Source: Escherichia coli (GTDB lineage Bacteria > Pseudomonadota > Gammaproteobacteria > Enterobacterales > Enterobacteriaceae). From it: a stretch of DNA of 64,000 nucleotides. The stretch is taken from assembly GCF_003334305.1 (NCBI RefSeq), contig NZ_QOWS01000023.1; one strand, given 5' to 3'. A program made the translations under genes and the position numbers. Below the pieces are notes generated by a model. That model made no database searches, was not told where the DNA came from, and saw only the letters and a list, made by a program, of their open reading frames with translations. This document shows positions 2,754 to 35,642 of the stretch, piece after piece; position 1 is the stretch's first letter, and the number at the start of each line of letters is the position of its first letter.

Positions 2754-4081
2754 GCCAGTTTCAGATCCCGGGTCATGTTTTCCACGTTGTTTTCGTGGAT
2801 CACCACGTTGTCTTCGATACGAATGCCGCCGAACGGTTTCAGTGCTTCAATTTTCTGCCAGTTGAAGTGCTTGCTGAACTGCCCTTCACGCCACGGTGCC
2901 AGCAGCGATTCAATGAAGTAGATACCCGGTTCGATGGTTAACACCATGCCCGGCTGGAGAATACGGGTGCAGCGCAGGTACGGATATTTTGCCGGTGCCG
3001 CGAGGTGCGTACCGCTATCATCCTGCATAAAACCGGCTACGTCATGCACCTGCAGGCCCAGCGGATGGCCAATACCGTGCGGCATAAACGGTCCGGTGAG
3101 ATCGTTTTCGACCATCGCTTCTTCACTCATATCGGTGATGATTTGATGTTTACGCAGCAGTTTGGCGATGCGCTGATGGAACTGGATGTGGTAATCCACA
3201 TAGCTGACGCCTGCTTTCATGGTAGCGATCAGCGCCAGTTGTTCATCATTTACGTCTTTCACCAGCTGTGCGTAGTCGTTGTCACTTTTTGCCGACCAGG
3301 TACGGGTCAGGTCAGCCGCATAGCCGTTATATTCGGCCCCGGCATCCAGCAGGAAGCTGCGCATCTCTTCCGGTGCCTGGTGGTCCAGTTTGGTGTAATG
3401 CAACACCGCAGCGTGTTCGTTGAGCGCCACAATGTTGCTGTAAGGTACGTCGGTATCACGATGACCGGTCGCGGTCAGATAGGCAATGTTGATATCGAAC
3501 TCGCTCATGCCAGAACGGAACGCTTCTTCTGCCGCGCGATGACCGTTGACCGCCATTTTCTGCGCTTCACGCATACAGGCCAGTTCGTACTCGGTTTTGA
3601 AGGAGCGGTAGTAATGCAGGTAGTCGATCACCCCTTTCGGGTTGATATTGCTGGCCTCAATACCCAGTTGCAGCGCACGTTCCGGCACCGGACCGATATA
3701 ACCGATATTCCCGCGCGCAGCAGGCAGCAGGCTACCAATGCCATCGGCTTTCGGCAGCGCGATCACTTCCACGTCTTCAGTCCAGAAAGAGGTCGGCAGC
3801 GGTTCGACGTTGTGCCAGTAATCAACCGGCAGATAGAACCACAGTTTCGGCTTGTTCACGCCATCCACCAGCAGCCAGCAGTTTGGCACCTGAGTTACCG
3901 GCACCCACGCTTTGAATTGCGGGTTCACTTTAAACGGATAGGGATGATCGTCGAGAAAAACGTTGAACAGTTCGCCGGAGTGAATAAGTAACGCATCCAG
4001 CTTGAAGCGCGCCAGCGCATCGCGAGTCCGTTCCTGTAAGGTAGCTATATGATTTTTATAGAGTGAGGCCAGTGATTCCAT
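2750..4081 (-). CDS. pepQ: Xaa-Pro dipeptidase (prolidase), 443 aa
   Basis: Full-length ORF recognised as PepQ (M24 peptidase). Confidence 0.93.
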
Positions 4082-4228
4082 TTTTTACCCTTCTGTTTTT
4101 TTGACCTTAAGTCTCCGCATCTTAGCACATCGTTCATCCAGAGCGTGATTTCTGCCGAGCGTGATCAGATCGGCATTTCTTTAATCTTTTATTTGCATAT
4201 TTTTAACACAAAATACACACTTCGATGC

Positions 4229-4245
4229 ATCTGGTACGACCAGAT
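4229..4245. promoter_or_regulatory. FadR operator upstream of fadB
   Basis: Perfect palindrome ATCTGGTACGACCAGAT ~25 bp upstream of the fadB ATG; matches the known fadB FadR operator (from memory). Confidence 0.8.
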
Positions 4246-4270
4246 CACCTTGCGGATTCAGGAGACTGAC

Positions 4271-6460
4271 ATGCTTTACAAAGGCGACACCCTGTACCTT
4301 GACTGGCTGGAAGATGGCATTGCCGAACTGGTATTTGATGCCCCAGGTTCAGTTAATAAACTCGACACTGCGACCGTCGCCAGCCTCGGCGAGGCCATCG
4401 GCGTGCTGGAACAGCAATCAGATCTAAAAGGGCTGCTGCTGCGTTCGAACAAAGCAGCCTTTATCGTCGGTGCTGATATCACCGAATTTTTGTCCCTGTT
4501 CCTCGTTCCTGAAGAACAGTTAAGTCAGTGGCTGCACTTTGCCAATAGCGTGTTTAATCGCCTGGAAGATCTGCCGGTGCCGACCATTGCTGCCGTCAAC
4601 GGCTATGCGCTGGGCGGTGGCTGCGAATGCGTGCTGGCGACCGATTATCGTCTGGCGACGCCGGATCTGCGCATCGGTCTGCCGGAAACCAAACTGGGCA
4701 TCATGCCGGGCTTTGGCGGTTCTGTACGTATGCCACGTATGCTGGGCGCTGACAGTGCGCTGGAAATCATTGCCGCCGGTAAAGATGTCGGCGCGGATCA
4801 GGCGCTGAAAATCGGTCTGGTGGATGGCGTAGTCAAAGCAGAAAAACTGGTTGAAGGCGCAAAGGCGGTTTTACGCCAGGCCATTAACGGCGACCTCGAC
4901 TGGAAAGCAAAACGTCAGCCGAAGCTGGAACCACTAAAACTGAGCAAGATTGAAGCCACCATGAGCTTCACCATCGCTAAAGGGATGGTCGCACAAACAG
5001 CGGGGAAACATTATCCGGCCCCCATCACCGCAGTAAAAACCATTGAAGCTGCGGCCCGTTTTGGTCGTGAAGAAGCCTTAAACCTGGAAAACAAAAGTTT
5101 TGTCCCGCTGGCGCATACCAACGAAGCCCGCGCACTGGTCGGCATTTTCCTTAACGATCAATATGTAAAAGGCAAAGCGAAGAAACTCACCAAAGACGTT
5201 GAAACCCCGAAACAGGCCGCGGTGCTGGGTGCAGGCATTATGGGCGGCGGCATCGCTTACCAGTCTGCGTGGAAAGGCGTGCCGGTTGTCATGAAAGATA
5301 TCAACGACAAGTCGTTAACCCTCGGCATGACCGAAGCCGCGAAACTGCTGAACAAGCAGCTTGAGCGCGGCAAGATCGATGGTCTGAAACTGGCTGGCGT
5401 GATCTCCACAATCCACCCAACGCTCGACTACGCCGGGTTTGACCGCGTGGATGTTGTGGTAGAAGCGGTTGTCGAAAACCCAAAAGTGAAAAAAGCCGTA
5501 CTGGCAGAAACCGAGCAGAAAGTACGCCCGAATACCGTGCTGGCGTCTAACACTTCAACCATTCCTATCAGCGAACTGGCCAACGCGCTGGAACGTCCAG
5601 AAAACTTCTGCGGGATGCACTTCTTTAACCCGGTCCACCGAATGCCGTTGGTAGAAATAATTCGCGGCGAGAAAAGCTCCGACGAAACCATCGCGAAAGT
5701 CGTCGCCTGGGCGAGCAAGATGGGCAAAACGCCGATTGTGGTTAACGACTGCCCCGGCTTCTTCGTTAACCGCGTGCTGTTCCCGTATTTCGCCGGTTTC
5801 AGCCAGCTGCTGCGCGACGGCGCGGATTTCCGCAAGATCGACAAAGTGATGGAAAAACAGTTTGGCTGGCCTATGGGTCCGGCATATCTGCTGGATGTCG
5901 TGGGCATTGATACCGCGCATCACGCTCAGGCTGTCATGGCAGCAGGCTTCCCGCAGCGGATGCAGAAAGATTACCGCGATGCCATCGACGCGCTGTTTGA
6001 TGCCAACCGCTTTGGTCAGAAGAACGGCCTCGGTTTCTGGCGTTATAAAGAAGACAGCAAAGGTAAGCCGAAGAAAGAAGAAGACGCCGCCGTTGAAGAC
6101 CTGCTGGCAGAAGTGAGCCAGCCGAAGCGCGATTTCAGCGAAGAAGAGATTATCGCCCGCATGATGATCCCGATGGTCAACGAAGTGGTGCGCTGTCTGG
6201 AGGAAGGCATTATCGCCACTCCGGCGGAAGCGGATATGGCGCTGGTCTACGGCCTGGGCTTCCCTCCGTTCCACGGCGGCGCGTTCCGCTGGCTGGACAC
6301 CCTCGGTAGCGCAAAATACCTCGATATGGCACAGCAATATCAGCACCTCGGCCCGCTGTATGAAGTGCCGGAAGGTCTGCGTAATAAAGCGCGTCATAAC
6401 GAACCGTACTATCCTCCGGTTGAGCCAGCCCGTCCGGTTGGCGACCTGAAAACGGCTTAA
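4271..6460 (+). CDS. fadB: Fatty-acid oxidation complex alpha subunit (enoyl-CoA hydratase / 3-hydroxyacyl-CoA dehydrogenase), 729 aa
   Basis: ORF track 4145-6460; start placed at in-frame ATG 4271 ([16 protein letters not shown]...) downstream of the FadR operator. Confidence 0.95.
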
Positions 6461-30754: not shown

Positions 30755-31642
30755 ATGGATGCAAAACAAACGCGGCAGGGCGTATTACTCGCTCTTGCCG
30801 CTTATTTTATTTGGGGTATTGCGCCAGCGTACTTCAAGTTGATTTACTACGTGCCCGCCGATGAAATCCTGACGCATCGCGTGATCTGGTCGTTTTTCTT
30901 TATGGTGGTGCTGATGAGTATTTGCCGCCAGTGGTCCTATTTAAAAACGCTGATTCAGACGCCACAGAAAATTTTTATGCTGGCAGTCTCTGCCGTGCTG
31001 ATTGGTGGCAACTGGCTACTGTTTATCTGGGCGGTGAACAATCACCATATGCTGGAAGCGAGCCTTGGTTACTTTATTAACCCGCTGGTGAACATTGTGC
31101 TGGGGATGATTTTCCTCGGCGAGCGATTCCGCCGGATGCAATGGCTGGCGGTGATTCTGGCGATATGTGGCGTGTTAGTCCAGCTGTGGACTTTTGGTTC
31201 GCTACCTATTATCGCGCTGGGACTGGCATTTAGTTTTGCCTTCTACGGTCTGGTACGCAAGAAGATTGCCGTTGAAGCGCAAACCGGCATGTTAATCGAA
31301 ACCATGTGGCTGCTGCCCGTGGCGGCAATTTACCTGTTTGCTATTGCCGACAGCTCAACCAGCCATATGGGGCAAAACCCGATGTCGCTGAATTTACTGC
31401 TGATCGCCGCCGGTATTGTCACTACCGTACCGCTGTTGTGTTTTACCGCCGCTGCCACGCGCTTGCGTCTCTCAACGTTAGGCTTTTTCCAGTACATTGG
31501 CCCGACGCTGATGTTCCTGCTGGCTGTGACGTTTTATGGTGAAAAACCGGGTGCCGATAAGATGGTGACTTTCGCCTTTATTTGGGTGGCGCTGGCAATT
31601 TTTGTTATGGATGCGATTTATACGCAGCGTAGAAAAAGTTAA
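30755..31642 (+). CDS. rarD: DMT-family transporter RarD, 295 aa
   Basis: Full-length polytopic membrane ORF recognised as RarD. Confidence 0.92.
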   Translation: MDAKQTRQGVLLALAAYFIWGIAPAYFKLIYYVPADEILTHRVIWSFFFMVVLMSICRQWSYLKTLIQTPQKIFMLAVSAVLIGGNWLLFIWAVNNHHMLEASLGYFINPLVNIVLGMIFLGERFRRMQWLAVILAICGVLVQLWTFGSLPIIALGLAFSFAFYGLVRKKIAVEAQTGMLIETMWLLPVAAIYLFAIADSSTSHMGQNPMSLNLLLIAAGIVTTVPLLCFTAAATRLRLSTLGFFQYIGPTLMFLLAVTFYGEKPGADKMVTFAFIWVALAIFVMDAIYTQRRKS

Positions 31643-31688
31643 GAATTAACATGGGTAGGCCGTTTAATGAGCCTACCCACTGACTTAT

Positions 31689-32033
31689 TTATCTTTTTTT
31701 GAAAAAAATTAAGATAAGAAAAAGAACAATATTTGTTACAGGAAGTACCCCCAAAACTCCCCAGTACTTACTCCATCCTAGAGACATCGTATATCTACCA
31801 AGGATTTGACAAAACCCAAAACTTAACCCTATACCTATACTTCTTAAATTTAATGTCGTAGTCAGGCTTAAAATAAATAGAACAAGGATGGTAATAGCCC
31901 ACCACAATAACCATGCCTTAACAAAATCAGATTTTTTGCTGTAAGGTTCTTTACCCAAGAACAACTGCCAAAAGTTACCATTCCCCATATAGAATCCATT
32001 CCCCAAGATATTGTTTATAGAATAAAAATACAT
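31689..32033 (-). CDS. Hypothetical small membrane protein (114 aa, 2-3 predicted TM helices); possibly YigG-like
   Basis: ATG-initiated ORF in low-GC DNA with hydrophobic stretches WLLWWAITILVLFILSL and VLGVLPVTNIVLFLILIFF; no family recognised with confidence. Confidence 0.45.
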   Translation of the reverse strand: MYFYSINNILGNGFYMGNGNFWQLFLGKEPYSKKSDFVKAWLLWWAITILVLFILSLTTTLNLRSIGIGLSFGFCQILGRYTMSLGWSKYWGVLGVLPVTNIVLFLILIFFKKR

Positions 32034-32308
32034 TCCAATTATATAATTAAAATATACCCCATCAATAAAAACTTACACACTCTAAATTACTACTGTATAG
32101 TTATCAATGCAAAGACTGCTATATTGCATATATATGCAAACCTCATAATTCAGGTAATATATATATTCAAAACAATTATATATAAAAAACAATGTAAAAA
32201 ATATTCAAATCATCCATCAGAAATATATTCTACCCATCCAGGCTTGAGCATTTATCACGCTTTCAGTTCATAATCTATACATTAACATCATGGTCAATAT
32301 TAATAACT

Positions 32309-32587
32309 TTGAATGATATCAACCTGGCTTTGAGTTTTATTCTGGTTATTAATAATACCTATGTAAATATCAATATTGGAGCAAAAAGAATAAGAGATAC
32401 TGGATGTAAGGCAATCTACTTTGTATTGATTTCATTGGGTTTGACACTTTTTTCTATTATCTCTGCAGCAATTGAAGGGGTGAGATGTGAGTCATTAAGC
32501 GTCCAACTCAACGTGGCATGGATATTATTCACAACAATTATATTATCTGCGATTCCCTCGGCTAAAATGTCGCTGTCAGCACACTAA
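32309..32587 (+). CDS. Questionable small hydrophobic ORF (92 aa, TTG start only)
   Basis: No in-frame ATG near the 5' end; the ORF depends on a TTG start; hydrophobic; AT-rich context. Confidence 0.25.
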   Translation: MNDINLALSFILVINNTYVNINIGAKRIRDTGCKAIYFVLISLGLTLFSIISAAIEGVRCESLSVQLNVAWILFTTIILSAIPSAKMSLSAH

Positions 32588-32611
32588 CTTACTCACAGCG
32601 ACATCGTATAG

Positions 32612-32749
32612 TTACAGCCAGTTCTTACGCTTAAAGTACAGATACGGTGTCAGGCCCGCAAGGATCATAAAGATAATCGCGCCAGGGTAGCCAAAGCTCC
32701 ACTTCAGTTCTGGCATAAACTCAAAGTTCATGCCATAGCTGGAGGCAAT
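32612..32749 (-). pseudogene. Duplicated 3'-end fragment of corA (last ~45 codons), fused upstream to unrelated sequence
   Basis: ~138 bp at 32612-32749 align at ~94% identity (8 mismatches) with the 3' end of intact corA (34322-34459); encodes ...[43 protein letters not shown]. Confidence 0.8.
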
Positions 32750-32938
32750 CCGCGTAGGAAAAAGTTTCCTAATCGGTAAATTCAACATTTTGTTATTAAC
32801 AATGAGCAAGACCAATCATTAACGAGGTTCTCTTCAGAGATGTAATGAAAAAATGTGAAATGTACTTCTTTTTTAAATATTTTTTTACCCTAGCATTTGT
32901 TCTCGAATTGACATTGAGCTTAAATATAACCAAGGCAA

Positions 32939-33793
32939 ATGCAAATGAATAACATATTACTTCCGCCAATTAATATTCCCTGTACACTTTTCGAAACTAT
33001 TAGTTTATTCGATGATTTTTCTGCTGATGATATGCAATATGGTGATATGGTAGAACAAGACTTTCTCTCACTCGGCCTAAGCGATATCTCAGCAAAAGTT
33101 GATCCTTACAGACTTATTAAATACCATTTCCCTGGCCCAGGTTCTATTAATGTTGCTTTTAGTGCCTCAAGTTCCGGAACAAAAATATCACAACGTGAAT
33201 GCACTGATATTTTATTTGCAGAAATGAAAGAACTAGCAAAAATGTTTTCCTTTTTTGGACAAAATAAAACACTTATCGAAGATCTGATTGAACATTTTAG
33301 ATATAGAAATGGCAGCAATTTTCATAGCCAACAATTAAATTTATCTTTTCATGAAAAAATAAATAAATATGGTTATAATAGTCCAATACGAATAATCAAA
33401 GAATGTATCGAAAATGGCATTAATTCAACTCCCTCGACAGGATACCAACCTCTTATCCTGCAAAGCATTAAAACCAAATTACTTTCATCAAGACTAAATA
33501 AATTTAATGACTTCGAGGACAGTTTTAATGGCTTAGGAATCAGTGTTCATGATATTTCAGCTCAAAAAATATCTCTTTTAAGTTTTCAAAACTACGCTAT
33601 AGGATGGAGTGCAACAATTCATTTTGTAGCACAGGACCACTTCGGTCTTGATGTAACTGATATCAAAAACAAGACTTACAGCAAATATAGATTTTTTCGC
33701 ATATGGTTCTTTTTACAACGGCATAAAGACTTTGCTTTCAAACCTTTTTTCACCAATTTTAACACTATCGAAAGAATCGAAAATTATCTATGA
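32939..33793 (+). CDS. Hypothetical cytoplasmic protein, 284 aa, acidic N-terminus; first gene of an overlapping two-gene cassette
   Basis: ATG-initiated ORF in a low-GC islet; no signal peptide; stop overlaps the next start (ATGA); family not identifiable without a search. Confidence 0.65.
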   Translation: MQMNNILLPPINIPCTLFETISLFDDFSADDMQYGDMVEQDFLSLGLSDISAKVDPYRLIKYHFPGPGSINVAFSASSSGTKISQRECTDILFAEMKELAKMFSFFGQNKTLIEDLIEHFRYRNGSNFHSQQLNLSFHEKINKYGYNSPIRIIKECIENGINSTPSTGYQPLILQSIKTKLLSSRLNKFNDFEDSFNGLGISVHDISAQKISLLSFQNYAIGWSATIHFVAQDHFGLDVTDIKNKTYSKYRFFRIWFFLQRHKDFAFKPFFTNFNTIERIENYL

Positions 33794-34269
33794 AAAGCAA
33801 ACTCCAGAAAATTATATTATGTTTATTTCTTCTATGCTGCATCTATAATTTATGGACATTGCGTCCTGTACAGATTTTGTATACATACTCTGATGCTGGC
33901 AATTCAGTCTTTCTGGTCGTTGATCATCTGCCATGGACTGACAGCGATAAAATAAATTGGTATCTGAAGCATCAGAATGAAATTAAAAATCAACATCCCC
34001 TACCAGAAGGTAGTTGGCATACCTGGTATGTCATTGATATCGGTAATGGCTTCACTGACTATAAAAAATATATCGAAGGGCCGTATGAAGATCTCTACTG
34101 TTTCCCGACAATTAAGAGCAATGATAATTGCATCGTGAAAAATTACTTAATGGTTATTAATGAATACCCTTATCGTAACACTCATATTGGTATTAACGAT
34201 TTTACTGAGTATCAATTAACACAAGAAAATAAAATAGAGCGAGTTTTCAATCCGCATGACTTTAAATAA
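33790..34269 (+). CDS. Hypothetical exported or membrane-anchored protein, 159 aa; second gene of the cassette
   Basis: N-terminal hydrophobic segment MKSKLQKIILCLFLLCCIYNLWTL; start overlaps the upstream stop by 4 bp. Confidence 0.6.
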   Translation: MKSKLQKIILCLFLLCCIYNLWTLRPVQILYTYSDAGNSVFLVVDHLPWTDSDKINWYLKHQNEIKNQHPLPEGSWHTWYVIDIGNGFTDYKKYIEGPYEDLYCFPTIKSNDNCIVKNYLMVINEYPYRNTHIGINDFTEYQLTQENKIERVFNPHDFK

Positions 34270-34322
34270 GACAATTTTTAGAAATAAGCCGGATAAAAAA
34301 ATAGCTTTATCCGGCACTCATA

Positions 34323-35273
34323 TTACAGCCAGTTCTTGCGCTTAAAGTACAGATACGGTGCCAGGCCCGCGAGGATCATAAAGATAATCGCGCCTGGGTA
34401 GCCGAAACTCCACTTCAGTTCTGGCATAAACTCAAAGTTCATCCCATAGCTGGAAGCAACGAGCGTCGGCGGCAGGAATACCACGGATACCACCGAGAAG
34501 ATTTTGATGATGCGGTTCTGCTCGATGTTGATAAAGCCCATCGCCGCCTGCATCAGGAAGTTCACCTTCTGGAACAGGGATTCGTTATGCGGCAGCAGGG
34601 ATTCGATATCTCGCAGGATTTCACGCGCCTGCTCCAGTTGCCCACCCGGTAAACGCGCCTTGCGTACCAGGAAGTTGAGCGCACGCTGGGTATCCATCAG
34701 ACACAGGCGAACTTTCCAGCCGATATCTTCCAGTTCCGCCAGCGTGGAGAGCGCCTCATCGTACTCATCGCCCTGATGCCCTTCCATAATTACCCGGCTC
34801 AACTGCTCCAGATCGCTGTAGATATTTTCAATTTCATCTGCCAGCTGTTCGATTTTGGTTTCGAACAGATCCAACAGCAGCTCGTAGGCGTTACCGTCCA
34901 CCATTGACTGGCTACGGGCGCGCATACGATACAGACGGAATGCAGGCAGTTCACGCTCACGCAGAGTAAACAGACGACCATCACGGATGGTAAATGCCAC
35001 AGTGGAGTTACCGGCGTGATCTTCCGCATCTTCAAAGAAGAAGAAGGAGTGAATATGCAGGCCGTCGTCGTCTTCAAAGAAACGTGCCGATGCTTCGATG
35101 TCTTCCAGTTCCGGGCGGGTTGCCAGGCTCTGGCCAAGTTCAGATTGTACGCGCAGTCGCTCGTCGTCGTCCGGTTCGACAAGATCAATCCATACTGCAT
35201 TTACAAGGGGTTGTGACTCTTCGACTTCCAGCCGGGTCAGTCGGTTATTTTCCAGTTGAAATGCGCTCAGCAT
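34323..35273 (-). CDS. corA: Magnesium/cobalt transport protein CorA, 316 aa
   Basis: ORF track 34323-35288; start at 35273 ([15 protein letters not shown]...); C-terminal [10 protein letters not shown] motif. Confidence 0.95.
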
Positions 35274-35642
35274 GACCGGGACTCCCAATGCTTAAAATAT
35301 CGGACAGTTCGGTGGGCACACAGAAACAAATTGGGTTTCAGACCATTAAACAGCCTGACTCAGCGCGACGGGAAAAATTGAGGTCGCTGACAACCGCTAA
35401 GGCTATCAGCAAAAAGGGATAGCCTTAGGAGTTGATCCTGGATGACAGGATAGTGAGCCAGTATCTACTGGGTGTGTCCAAGGCGAATGTCCTCTTAGAG
35501 TGATCGTGCGCGCATGTTACGCCAGCAAAATTTTGCCGTCAACACGCAACAGAACACCACAGAACAATAGTTGAACTTCGCGCTTTTTGGTACTCGTCAA
35601 GGTCGCTAACAGGATAAAAAAATCCAACATCCAGGACCTATA

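What the first reader, a model, noticed from the sequence alone, without database searches (positions are those of the whole stretch)
31643..32611. Very AT-rich block with divergent small hydrophobic ORFs between rarD and the corA fragment
Immediately after rarD the GC content drops sharply (long runs such as 32030-32310 are largely A/T, with ATATATAT and poly-A tracts). A 114-aa ATG-initiated membrane ORF (minus strand) and a 92-aa TTG-only hydrophobic ORF (plus strand) face away from a ~275-bp intergenic region. In K-12 this interval holds yigF and yigG (from memory), but I cannot confirm that these ORFs correspond to them. The composition suggests H-NS-silenced, horizontally acquired DNA, and the 92-aa ORF may not be a real gene.
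Basis: partly seen in the sequence, partly recalled or inferred. Interest (0 to 1): 0.4.

Follow-up and report, generated by a model that had tools for sequence, protein, structure and literature searches.

The report
Alternative yigG-locus allele with dead start codon
The AT-rich stretch after rarD is a long-established alternative version of E. coli's yigG-yigF locus, encoding two small membrane proteins of unknown function, one of which has lost its start codon in this strain; it is ordinary accessory DNA.

Summary
Window 31643-32611 has 32% GC against a 52% window mean, and both ORFs exist as described.

It is not K-12 yigF/yigG. It is a different haplotype of the rarD-corA interval, found in 1464 of 5426 complete E. 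coli genomes, including O157:H7, O26, O103 and SE11.

It holds two back-to-back genes that both show purifying selection:
- **orf99 (31689-31988, minus strand).** The 114-aa reading is a strain-specific extension.
- **A 128-codon distant yigG relative (32201-32587, plus strand).** RefSeq annotation omits it in every genome sampled.

Here its ATG is ATA, an allele shared by 356 genomes, so it is probably a null or strong hypomorph.

Both proteins have the DUF805 small inner-membrane fold, whose function is unknown.

The same gene pair sits at the same locus in Salmonella enterica and Pseudocitrobacter, and is absent from phages and true plasmids. That points to an old resident polymorphism, not a recent island. 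H-NS silencing is documented only for the K-12 haplotype and is plausible here.

The adjacent cassette, bracketed by a duplicated corA 3' end, is a colicin M-like effector/immunity pair. Interest is low to moderate.

The parts
31650..31682 (.). Hairpin between the convergent rarD (+) and orf99 (-) genes. It is probably a bidirectional intrinsic terminator.
   Evidence: The scan finds an 11-pair stem. Folding gives -17.9 and -19.5 kcal/mol on the two strands, z -3.6 and -4.9, with no shuffle folding as well. It is conserved in EDL933, O26, LY180 and MS 21-1.
31689..31988 (-). orf99: a 99-aa small inner-membrane protein with a divergent DUF805 fold. RefSeq annotates it as a hypothetical protein (WP_000526434.1).
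   Evidence: - PGAP calls it at these coordinates.
- The ATG with an upstream AATGGA motif is conserved in Escherichia, Salmonella and Pseudocitrobacter.
- Length is conserved at 98-99 aa across genera.
- pN/pS is about 0.2 against a divergent Escherichia lineage, Fisher p 0.0015.
- The AF2 model has pLDDT 81 and is helical.
- Among the 50 best AFDB50 matches, all but rank 1 (a 97%-identical Shigella sonnei protein fragment) are mostly DUF805 or YhaH/YhaI proteins.
- 3 of 13 family members hit Pfam DUF805 at E<=1e-3.
31989..32033 (-). Strain-specific N-terminal extension that turns orf99 into the 114-aa ORF. It is probably not translated as part of the protein.
   Evidence: A 1-bp deletion in the window, relative to EDL933, O26, LY180 and MS 21-1, puts the upstream ATG in frame (column 360). 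The other strains have only GTG or TTG extensions of 5-6 codons. This stretch carries 9 substitutions and 2 gaps against MS 21-1, compared with 6 substitutions in the 300-bp ORF.
31989..32200 (.). A 212-bp divergent intergenic (promoter) region with 22.6% GC. It is the likeliest nucleation site for H-NS.
   Evidence: GC is. The best sigma-70-like site (10 of 12: TTGATG-16-TATAAT, 32065..32038, minus strand) points at orf99, and a 9-of-12 site (32072..32101, plus strand) points at the yigG-like gene. The number of such sites equals the shuffle expectation, so they are weak evidence. This is the fastest-evolving part of the block, with 28 substitutions and 21 gap columns against MS 21-1. No Rfam family matches.
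32201..32587 (+). yigG-like gene: 128 codons plus stop, encoding a four-helix DUF805-fold inner-membrane protein. In this strain the start codon is ATA instead of ATG, so it is probably a null or strong hypomorph. RefSeq does not annotate it.
   Evidence: - ATG is present in EDL933, O26, LY180, MS 21-1 and L008, and ATA in the window.
- The exact ATA 32-mer occurs in 356 genomes and the ATG 32-mer in 966.
- pN/pS is 0.15-0.25, Fisher p 2e-6 to 3e-11.
- It matches NF008474 (YigG) at E 6.8e-6 and 26 bits over the full length.
- It is 25-30% identical to K-12 and ST131 YigG in collinear alignments.
- The KRIRDTG motif aligns with QRLRDSG in YigG.
- The top AFDB50 fold matches are Salmonella homologues, followed by DUF805 proteins.
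32309..32587 (+). It is the residual ORF left after loss of the ATG, and lacks the first transmembrane helix of the 128-aa protein.
   Evidence: It matches only profile positions 56-132 of 138 of NF008474.
32567..32605 (.). Hairpin overlapping the yigG-like stop codon. On the minus strand it is followed by UUUU. It is probably the shared terminator of the yigG-like gene and, in strains without the cassette, of corA.
   Evidence: Folding gives -19.6 and -25.3 kcal/mol, z -4.2 and -4.3. In MS 21-1 the full corA gene abuts this hairpin directly.
32612..32748 (-). Context, outside the finding: a 137-bp duplicate of the corA 3' end. It marks the left border of the inserted effector/immunity cassette.
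   Evidence: It is 94.2% identical to 34323-34459. PGAP annotates it as a partial CorA pseudogene.
32939..34269 (+). Context, outside the finding: YPO3983/DUF3289 (32939-33793) plus DUF943 (33790-34269), a colicin M-like toxin and its immunity protein.
   Evidence: TIGR03034 matches at 428.7 bits. The function comes from PMC11148199.

Best explanation
The block is one of four common haplotypes of the hypervariable rarD-corA interval of E. coli. It is an alternative to K-12's yigG-yigF and replaces the DNA exactly between the ends of the two convergent core genes.

**What it carries**
- Two divergently transcribed genes for small polytopic inner-membrane proteins of the DUF805 fold.
- orf99 (99 aa) has a three-helix core.
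- The second gene is a 128-aa, four-helix remote relative of YigG.
- They are separated by a 212-bp, 23%-GC promoter region.
- Each gene ends at a hairpin shared with the neighbouring core gene.

**Shown**
- The gene models.
- Purifying selection on both genes.
- Fold and family assignment.
- Population frequency in E. coli.
- The same pair at the same site in Salmonella and Pseudocitrobacter.
- In this strain and 355 other complete genomes, the yigG-like start codon is ATA.

**Inferred**
- The haplotype is an old resident polymorphism, kept or exchanged by homologous recombination through the conserved flanks. It is not a recently imported island.
- Like the K-12 haplotype, it is largely silenced by H-NS and other nucleoid proteins under laboratory conditions.
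- The ATA allele abolishes or strongly reduces synthesis of the yigG-like protein, because non-AUG/GUG/UUG codons initiate poorly in E. coli. That leaves only orf99 functional here.
- The biochemical role is that of an accessory envelope or membrane protein, as suggested by the weak attachment and chlorine-stress phenotypes of Salmonella yigG mutants. This last step is the least supported.
For: **Different from K-12**
- Window and K-12 share no similarity between the last codons of rarD and the corA stop codon.
- K-12 has tandem yigG>yigF, whereas the window has a divergent orf99/yigG-like pair.

**Population frequency**
- Block: 1464 of 5426 genomes.
- K-12 type: about 2400.
- ST131 type (79% identity): 554.
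- Cassette-only type: about 1000.

**Gene models and start-codon loss:**

**Selection**
- yigG-like: pS 0.18-0.42 against pN 0.03-0.10.
- orf99: pS 0.13-0.15 against pN 0.03.
- Fisher p ranges from 1.5e-3 down to 3e-11.
- There are no frameshifts, and lengths are conserved across genera, while the intergenic region is full of indels.

**Family and fold**
- NF008474 at E 6.8e-6 over the full length.
- Weak Pfam DUF805 hits for several members of both families.
- AF2 models with pLDDT 81 and 70.
- AFDB50 hit lists dominated by DUF805 proteins.

**Synteny across genera**
- Salmonella enterica (L020, L021) and Pseudocitrobacter corydidari (L019) carry rarD, orf98, a 126-127-aa yigG-like gene and corA in the same arrangement.
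- Protein identities to E. coli are 59-61% (orf99) and 46-48% (yigG-like), against 85-97% for the flanking proteins.
- The interval has GC 0.33-0.35 in all of them.

**Not mobile**
- No phage hit.
- The only 'plasmid' hits are 1.0-Mb and 4.8-Mb records that look like mislabelled chromosomal sequence.
- No PHROG or PADLOC hits.

**Silencing of the K-12 counterpart**
- PMC7229825.
- Promoter island, PMC3661553.
- Extended protein occupancy domain over yigF-yigG, 10.1101/2020.01.29.924811.

**Phenotype of Salmonella yigG:** PMC3579871.
Against: - No expression, Ribo-seq or H-NS binding data were available for this haplotype.
- Promoter-like sites are no more frequent than in shuffled sequence.
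- The E. coli proteins themselves do not reach significance against Pfam DUF805 (E 0.024-0.42 for the yigG-like protein, nothing for orf99). Profile-profile comparison of the two families is not significant. The assignment of orf99 rests on intermediate sequences and on fold.
- pN/pS of 0.2-0.25 is far above that of rarD (about 0.01), so constraint is weak.
- A quarter of carriers have lost the yigG-like ATG, and at least one genome has an IS1 in the block. The gene is therefore dispensable.
- Ancient polymorphism cannot be separated from repeated lateral allele exchange with the data in hand.
- The Salmonella phenotypes concern the K-12-type yigG, which is only 25-30% identical.
Confidence: 0.8

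Rival explanations
1. Recently acquired, H-NS-silenced foreign island. On this view the block was imported into the B1/E lineages from an AT-rich donor and displaced yigG-yigF.
For: GC is 0.32 against 0.52. The block is present in only 27% of genomes. The neighbouring DUF3289/DUF943 cassette clearly arrived by insertion with a corA 3' duplication. K-12's counterpart is treated in the literature as horizontally acquired and H-NS-silenced.
Against: - The block has no integrase, transposase, tRNA or flanking direct repeats.
- It has no match in phages or true plasmids.
- The same gene pair in the same orientation occupies the same site in Salmonella and Pseudocitrobacter, with divergence far exceeding the flanks.
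- A divergent Escherichia lineage (L008) also has it.
- The K-12 haplotype is equally AT-rich (0.347), so low GC does not polarise which haplotype is foreign.
Confidence: 0.12
2. Competition or immunity module. On this view the two small membrane proteins are orphan immunity-type or exclusion proteins against membrane-acting toxins or phages. Alternative haplotypes would be maintained by balancing selection, and the module would be functionally linked to the adjacent colicin M-like effector/immunity cassette.
For: Several deeply diverged haplotypes occupy one site in at least two genera. The proteins evolve fast compared with the flanks. They are small polytopic inner-membrane proteins. A validated toxin/immunity pair lies next door.
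Against: - There is no PADLOC or PHROG hit.
- The block occurs without the cassette in MS 21-1, Salmonella and Pseudocitrobacter, and the cassette occurs without the block in A0 34/86. The two are therefore independent.
- No toxin gene lies inside the block.
- pN/pS is below 1 with no sign of diversifying selection at the resolution used.
- The frequent loss-of-start allele argues against strong current selection.
Confidence: 0.06
3. Non-coding AT-rich spacer whose ORFs are chance open frames or dead pseudogenes.
For: The 92-aa ORF has only a TTG start. RefSeq does not annotate it. Hydrophobic ORFs arise easily in T-rich DNA. The family has no known function.
Against: - Synonymous changes significantly exceed non-synonymous changes in both frames.
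- Both ORFs keep their length and frame from Escherichia to Salmonella and Pseudocitrobacter, while the spacer between them accumulates indels.
- The AF2 models are confident and match a defined family fold.
Confidence: 0.02

Closest known systems
E. coli K-12 YigG (b3818; NCBIfam NF008474 / PRK11371)
   Same: Both are inner-membrane proteins of about 126-128 aa, on the rarD strand, in the same rarD-corA interval. They align collinearly over the full length, sharing the motif Y-x-x-I-N-x-x-x-(K/Q)-R-(I/L)-R-D-(S/T)-G and a conserved Cys. Both sit in about 33-35% GC DNA.
   Different: Identity is only 25-30%, and the score is 26 bits against the curated cut-off of 217. Here the gene lies next to corA, not next to rarD. 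Its partner is orf99 on the opposite strand instead of yigF downstream. In this strain it has no ATG.
Pfam DUF805 (PF05656; YhaH/YhaI-type inner-membrane proteins)
   Same: The predicted folds of both proteins retrieve mostly DUF805, YhaH or YhaI proteins from AFDB50, with TM-scores of 0.6-0.75 for the better matches. Some members of both families hit the Pfam model at E down to 8e-5. Both share the short N-terminal amphipathic segment followed by transmembrane helices.
   Different: The E. coli sequences are below significance against the Pfam model. orf99 has a degenerate loop motif (GRYTMSLGWSKYW) in place of the R-L-H/R-D-x-G motif. The function of DUF805 itself is unknown, so membership does not give a mechanism.
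K-12 yigG-yigF as an H-NS-silenced 'promoter island' / EPOD
   Same: Same chromosomal site, same low GC, and small membrane-protein genes between rarD and corA.
   Different: The DNA is unrelated, and there is no yigF (DUF2628) homologue. H-NS binding and spurious intragenic promoters have been shown only for the K-12 sequence.
DUF3289/DUF943 colicin M-like effector-immunity cassette (neighbour, 32939-34269)
   Same: It is also an AT-rich, strain-variable insert in the rarD-corA interval.
   Different: It is a separate unit. It has its own border (the duplicated corA 3' end) and occurs with or without the block. No protein similarity to orf99 or the yigG-like protein emerged from the Pfam and NCBIfam scans.

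Membership tests
YigG equivalog (NCBIfam NF008474) | Whole-protein score at or above the curated cut-off of 217 bits | tested here: not met
   The 128-aa form scores 26.2 bits (E 6.8e-6) and the 92-aa ORF scores 21.1 bits. K-12 YigG scores 255.6 bits. It is a remote homologue, not an equivalog.
YigG equivalog (NCBIfam NF008474) | Full-length collinear match with the conserved R-(I/L)-R-D-x-G loop | tested here: met
   Residues 8-120 align to profile positions 15-133 of 138. KRIRDTG aligns with QRLRDSG.
K-12 yigG-yigF operon arrangement | Tandem yigG then yigF (DUF2628) on the rarD strand, with high DNA identity to K-12 | tested here: not met
   There is no DNA similarity inside the interval. 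No YigF-like protein is present. The two genes are divergent.
Pfam DUF805 (PF05656) | Significant match to the Pfam HMM | tested here: inconclusive
   The E. coli yigG-like protein reaches E 0.024 (92 aa) and 0.42 (128 aa), and orf99 gives no hit. Among family members, 3 of 13 (orf99 family) and 1 of 7 (yigG family) reach E<=1e-3.
Pfam DUF805 (PF05656) | DUF805 fold: a small bundle of 3-4 transmembrane helices | tested here: met
   In the AFDB50 Foldseek top-50 lists, once the close homologues of each query at the top are set aside, most matches are DUF805, YhaH or YhaI proteins, with TM-scores of 0.6-0.75 for the better ones. The models have pLDDT 81 and 70. Foldseek E-values for the DUF805 matches are weak (about 1e-3 to 0.8).
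H-NS-silenced xenogeneic DNA | AT content well above the genome mean | tested here: met
   GC is 0.322 for the block and 0.226 for the intergenic region, against 0.518 for the window.
H-NS-silenced xenogeneic DNA | H-NS occupancy and derepression in an hns mutant | not testable with these tools
   Only the K-12 haplotype is documented. No data were found for this haplotype. A search for guessed EDL933 locus tags found nothing relevant.
Mobile genomic island | Integrase or transposase, tRNA or att-type repeats, or presence on phages or plasmids | tested here: not met
   No such genes lie in 31643-32611. There is no phage match, and the only 'plasmid' matches are 1.0-Mb and 4.8-Mb records that look like mislabelled chromosomal sequence. 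The only repeat, the corA 3' duplication, belongs to the neighbouring cassette.
Anti-phage defence or phage-derived genes | Match to PADLOC or PHROG models | tested here: not met
   No hits at E<=0.1.

The most novel reading that the evidence does not exclude
The rarD-corA interval may be a trans-genus balanced polymorphism. At least two unrelated cassettes of DUF805-type membrane proteins (yigG-yigF, and orf99 plus the yigG-like gene) would have been kept side by side in both Escherichia and Salmonella populations since before the genera split. That would imply frequency-dependent selection, for example as receptors or immunity determinants for a membrane-acting toxin or phage. It would give the large DUF805 family its first functional handle.
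Probability: 0.1. Interest if true: 0.55.

Novelty: new member of a known kind. Interest (0 to 1): 0.25.

Why it matters
The practical value is mainly for annotation and population genetics.
- A conserved 128-codon gene is missing from the RefSeq annotation in every carrier genome sampled; about 1460 complete E. coli genomes, including O157:H7 EDL933, carry the block.
- The "yigF/yigG" labels of K-12 cannot be transferred to B1/E strains.
- A clade of 356 genomes carries a natural start-codon knockout that could serve as a ready-made mutant.

The locus also illustrates a general point. An AT-rich, H-NS-type "foreign-looking" segment can be an old, syntenic polymorphism shared between genera rather than a recent import. 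None of this changes current understanding of E. coli biology, because the function of the DUF805 family remains unknown.

Tried and rejected
- **K-12 yigF/yigG identity.** Rejected by DNA and protein comparison.
- **orf99 as an inverted yigF or yigG.** There is no significant pairwise similarity. Profile-profile comparison of the orf99 family against the yigG family is not significant (probabilities 0.4% and 4%).
- **Direct family scans.** Pfam and NCBIfam scans of orf99 gave nothing.
- **Solved structures.** There are none for either family.
- **Rfam.** No RNA family in 31000-35500.
- **Phage and defence libraries.** PHROGs and PADLOC gave nothing.
- **GTDB genome scan with the orf99 alignment.** It returned only three contigs of 99-100% E. 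coli sequence inside MAGs labelled Clostridium, Alistipes and Collinsella. These are contamination, and the degenerate pattern was too narrow to pick up the Salmonella or Pseudocitrobacter copies.
- **Remote orf99 relatives.** The 30%-identity relatives sit on short metagenome contigs with uninformative neighbours.
- **P0027.** This apparent 51% homologue is a frameshifted gene call in a low-quality E. coli assembly.
- **Literature search for guessed EDL933 locus tags Z5336-Z5341.** Only irrelevant hits.
- **Frame error.** My first dN/dS run on the yigG-like gene used a frame off by one and gave a spurious pN>pS. It was corrected.
Full report
**1. The observation**

The window is E. coli chromosome with the gene order recQ-pldA-yigI-rarD ... 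corA-ysgD-yigE-uvrD. It is 100% identical over the block to strain A7.

From the rarD stop codon (31642), GC falls from about 0.52 to 0.32.
- The 969-bp block has z = -4.2 against all windows of the same size.
- 32030-32310 has GC 0.25.
- The only part of the 64 kb below 40% GC is 31214-34657.

They are 275 bp apart, and a corA 3' fragment follows at 32612.

**2. It is not K-12 yigF/yigG**

K-12 has rarD > yigG > yigF < corA. The two small genes are each 126 aa, in tandem on the rarD strand, within a 911-bp interval of GC 0.347.

BLASTN of the window against K-12 loses all similarity between the last codons of rarD and the corA stop codon. RarD ends ...YTQRRKS here and ...YTQRRTSK in K-12.

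Among 5426 complete E. coli genomes:

| Haplotype | Genomes |
|---|---|
| Window block (O157:H7 EDL933, O26, O103, O111, SE11, O104:H4, B7A, LY180) | 1464 |
| K-12 haplotype | about 2400 |
| 79%-identical yigG/yigF variant (ST131) | 554 |
| No small genes; only a remnant of the yigG 5' end fused to the DUF3289/DUF943 cassette (for example A0 34/86) | about 1000 |

**3. Correct gene models**

*Minus strand.*
- PGAP calls a 99-aa protein at 31689..31988 in every genome inspected.
- An alignment of five E. coli haplotype variants shows that the window has a 1-bp deletion just upstream. This fuses an extra ATG in frame and produces the 114-aa reading. Other strains have only 5-6 extra codons from GTG or TTG.
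- The ATG at 31988, preceded by AATGGA, is conserved as far as Salmonella and Pseudocitrobacter.

*Plus strand.*
- The frame of the 92-aa ORF is open back to 32199.
- In EDL933, O26, LY180, MS 21-1 and a divergent Escherichia assembly (L008), an ATG occupies the position where the window has ATA (32201-32203). This gives a 128-codon gene.
- Allele-specific 32-mers find the ATA form in 356 genomes and the ATG form in 966.
- No feature is annotated under any of the sampled matches, so RefSeq omits this gene in every genome sampled.

**4. Both are real genes in the lineage**

| Gene | Comparison | pS | pN | Fisher p |
|---|---|---|---|---|
| yigG-like | MS 21-1 vs other E. coli | 0.18-0.19 | 0.03 | 2e-6 |
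| yigG-like | E. coli vs L008 | 0.42 | 0.10 | 3e-11 |
| orf99 | E. coli vs L008 | 0.13-0.15 | 0.03 | 0.0015 |

The ORFs have no indels, while the spacer between them has 28 substitutions and 21 gap columns in the MS 21-1 comparison. Constraint is much weaker than on rarD, where pN/pS is about 0.01.

**5. What the proteins are**

*The 128-aa protein.*
- It matches the YigG model NF008474 over its full length at E 6.8e-6, but scores only 26 bits against the 217-bit cut-off.
- It is 25-30% identical to K-12 and ST131 YigG in collinear alignments that share the (K/Q)R(I/L)RD(S/T)G loop.
- Its AF2 model (pLDDT 70) retrieves Salmonella homologues first. Next come Phytobacter, Kosakonia and Mangrovibacter membrane proteins, then a long list of DUF805 proteins.

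*orf99.*
- It has no direct Pfam or NCBIfam hit.
- An exhaustive HMMER search found a small family down to about 30% identity.
- 3 of 13 members hit Pfam DUF805 at E<=1e-3, and 6 of 13 at E<=0.1.
- Its AF2 model (pLDDT 81, pTM 0.68) has a top-50 AFDB50 list made up mostly of DUF805, YhaH or YhaI proteins, behind a 97%-identical Shigella sonnei protein fragment at rank 1.

The block therefore encodes two divergent DUF805-fold small inner-membrane proteins. DUF805 has no established function. No solved structure exists for either family, and neither matches phage or defence libraries.

**6. Origin**

A profile search found the same divergent pair (orf98, plus a 126-127-aa yigG-like gene) between rarD and corA in two other genera:
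- Salmonella enterica (L020, L021; the protein cluster has 807 members).
- Pseudocitrobacter corydidari (L019).

Protein identities to E. coli are 59-61% for orf99 and 46-48% for the yigG-like protein, against 85-97% for PldA, YigI, RarD and CorA. The interval GC is 0.33-0.35.

Salmonella Typhimurium, Saintpaul and Typhi carry the K-12-type yigG at 82% identity, while Enteritidis lacks it (PMC3579871). Both haplotypes therefore appear to segregate in both genera.

The block has no mobility genes, no phage match and no true plasmid match. I read this as an old resident polymorphism, or alleles exchanged by homologous recombination through the conserved flanks, rather than a recent island. I cannot separate those two alternatives with the data in hand.

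**7. Regulation and signals**

- A stable hairpin at 31650-31682 lies between rarD and orf99.
- A second hairpin at 32567-32605 overlaps the yigG-like stop codon. On the minus strand it is followed by UUUU.
- In MS 21-1, which lacks the cassette, corA abuts the second hairpin directly. It probably terminates both convergent genes.
- The 212-bp spacer (GC 0.226) contains back-to-back sigma-70-like sites, but no more than shuffled sequence does.
- No Rfam family matches.
- H-NS-type silencing is documented for the K-12 haplotype through intragenic promoters in yigG, a "promoter island" and an extended protein occupancy domain. For this haplotype it is only inferred from composition.

**8. This strain**

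With ATA in place of ATG, the next in-frame start is the TTG at codon 37, which would remove the first transmembrane helix. The yigG-like gene is therefore most likely a null or strong hypomorph here. This rests on general knowledge that ATA initiates very poorly in E. coli, and I did not test it. orf99 is intact.

**9. Verdict**

The block is a correctly observed, ordinary accessory locus. It is an alternative, ancient-looking allele of the yigG region that encodes new divergent members of a known but uncharacterised family. One of the two genes is inactivated in this strain and unannotated in the RefSeq genomes sampled. Interest is low to moderate.

The most novel reading not excluded is a trans-genus balanced polymorphism that would point to an antagonism-related role for DUF805 proteins. 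I put its probability at about 0.1.

Noticed in passing
window 32612-32748 and 34323-34459: A 137-bp direct repeat of the corA 3' end (94.2% identity) brackets the DUF3289/DUF943 cassette. The cassette therefore seems to have entered by recombination at the corA terminus, regenerating an intact corA and leaving a corA' stub.
   Followed up: partly
window 32939-33793 and 33790-34269: YPO3983/DUF3289 plus DUF943 is a colicin M-like periplasmic toxin and its immunity protein (PMC11148199), and here it lies far from any T6SS genes I examined. At least 80% of the stretch that carries it (32612-34322) is matched in 2636 of 5426 genomes. DUF943 is frameshifted in O26 RM10386 (L005). The toxin gene is split by ISVsa5 in LY180 (L006).
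   Followed up: partly
L012 (E. coli A0 34/86) 4001-4310: In about 1000 genomes the cassette directly replaces most of yigG and all of yigF. A short remnant of the K-12-type yigG 5' end remains fused to the left end of the cassette.
   Followed up: partly
window 32201-32587; L003 3562-3948: The 128-codon yigG-like gene is not annotated by PGAP/RefSeq in any genome sampled, even where it has an ATG and is intact (EDL933, O26, MS 21-1).
   Followed up: yes
L018 (ST131) 3095-3475: The ST131-type YigG scores 210.4 bits against NF008474, just under the 217-bit cut-off. That explains why RefSeq labels it 'hypothetical protein' although it is clearly YigG.
   Followed up: yes
L022, L023, L024: GTDB representative MAGs labelled uncultured Clostridium, Alistipes and Collinsella contain short contigs that are 99-100% identical to this E. 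coli block. This is almost certainly E. coli contamination of the bins.
   Followed up: no
L007 (GCA_002230675.1): This E. coli assembly is 97.7% identical to the window over 9 kb but is riddled with short gene calls. Its apparent 51%-identity orf99 'homologue' (P0027) is a frameshift artefact.
   Followed up: yes
window 31630-31642: The left haplotype breakpoint lies inside the last codons of rarD. RarD has 295 aa ending RRKS with this haplotype, and 296 aa ending RRTSK with the K-12 haplotype.
   Followed up: partly
H63, NZ_CP021535.1 (strain AR_0119): An IS1B element is inserted within the block in this strain, which is a further sign that the locus is dispensable.
   Followed up: no
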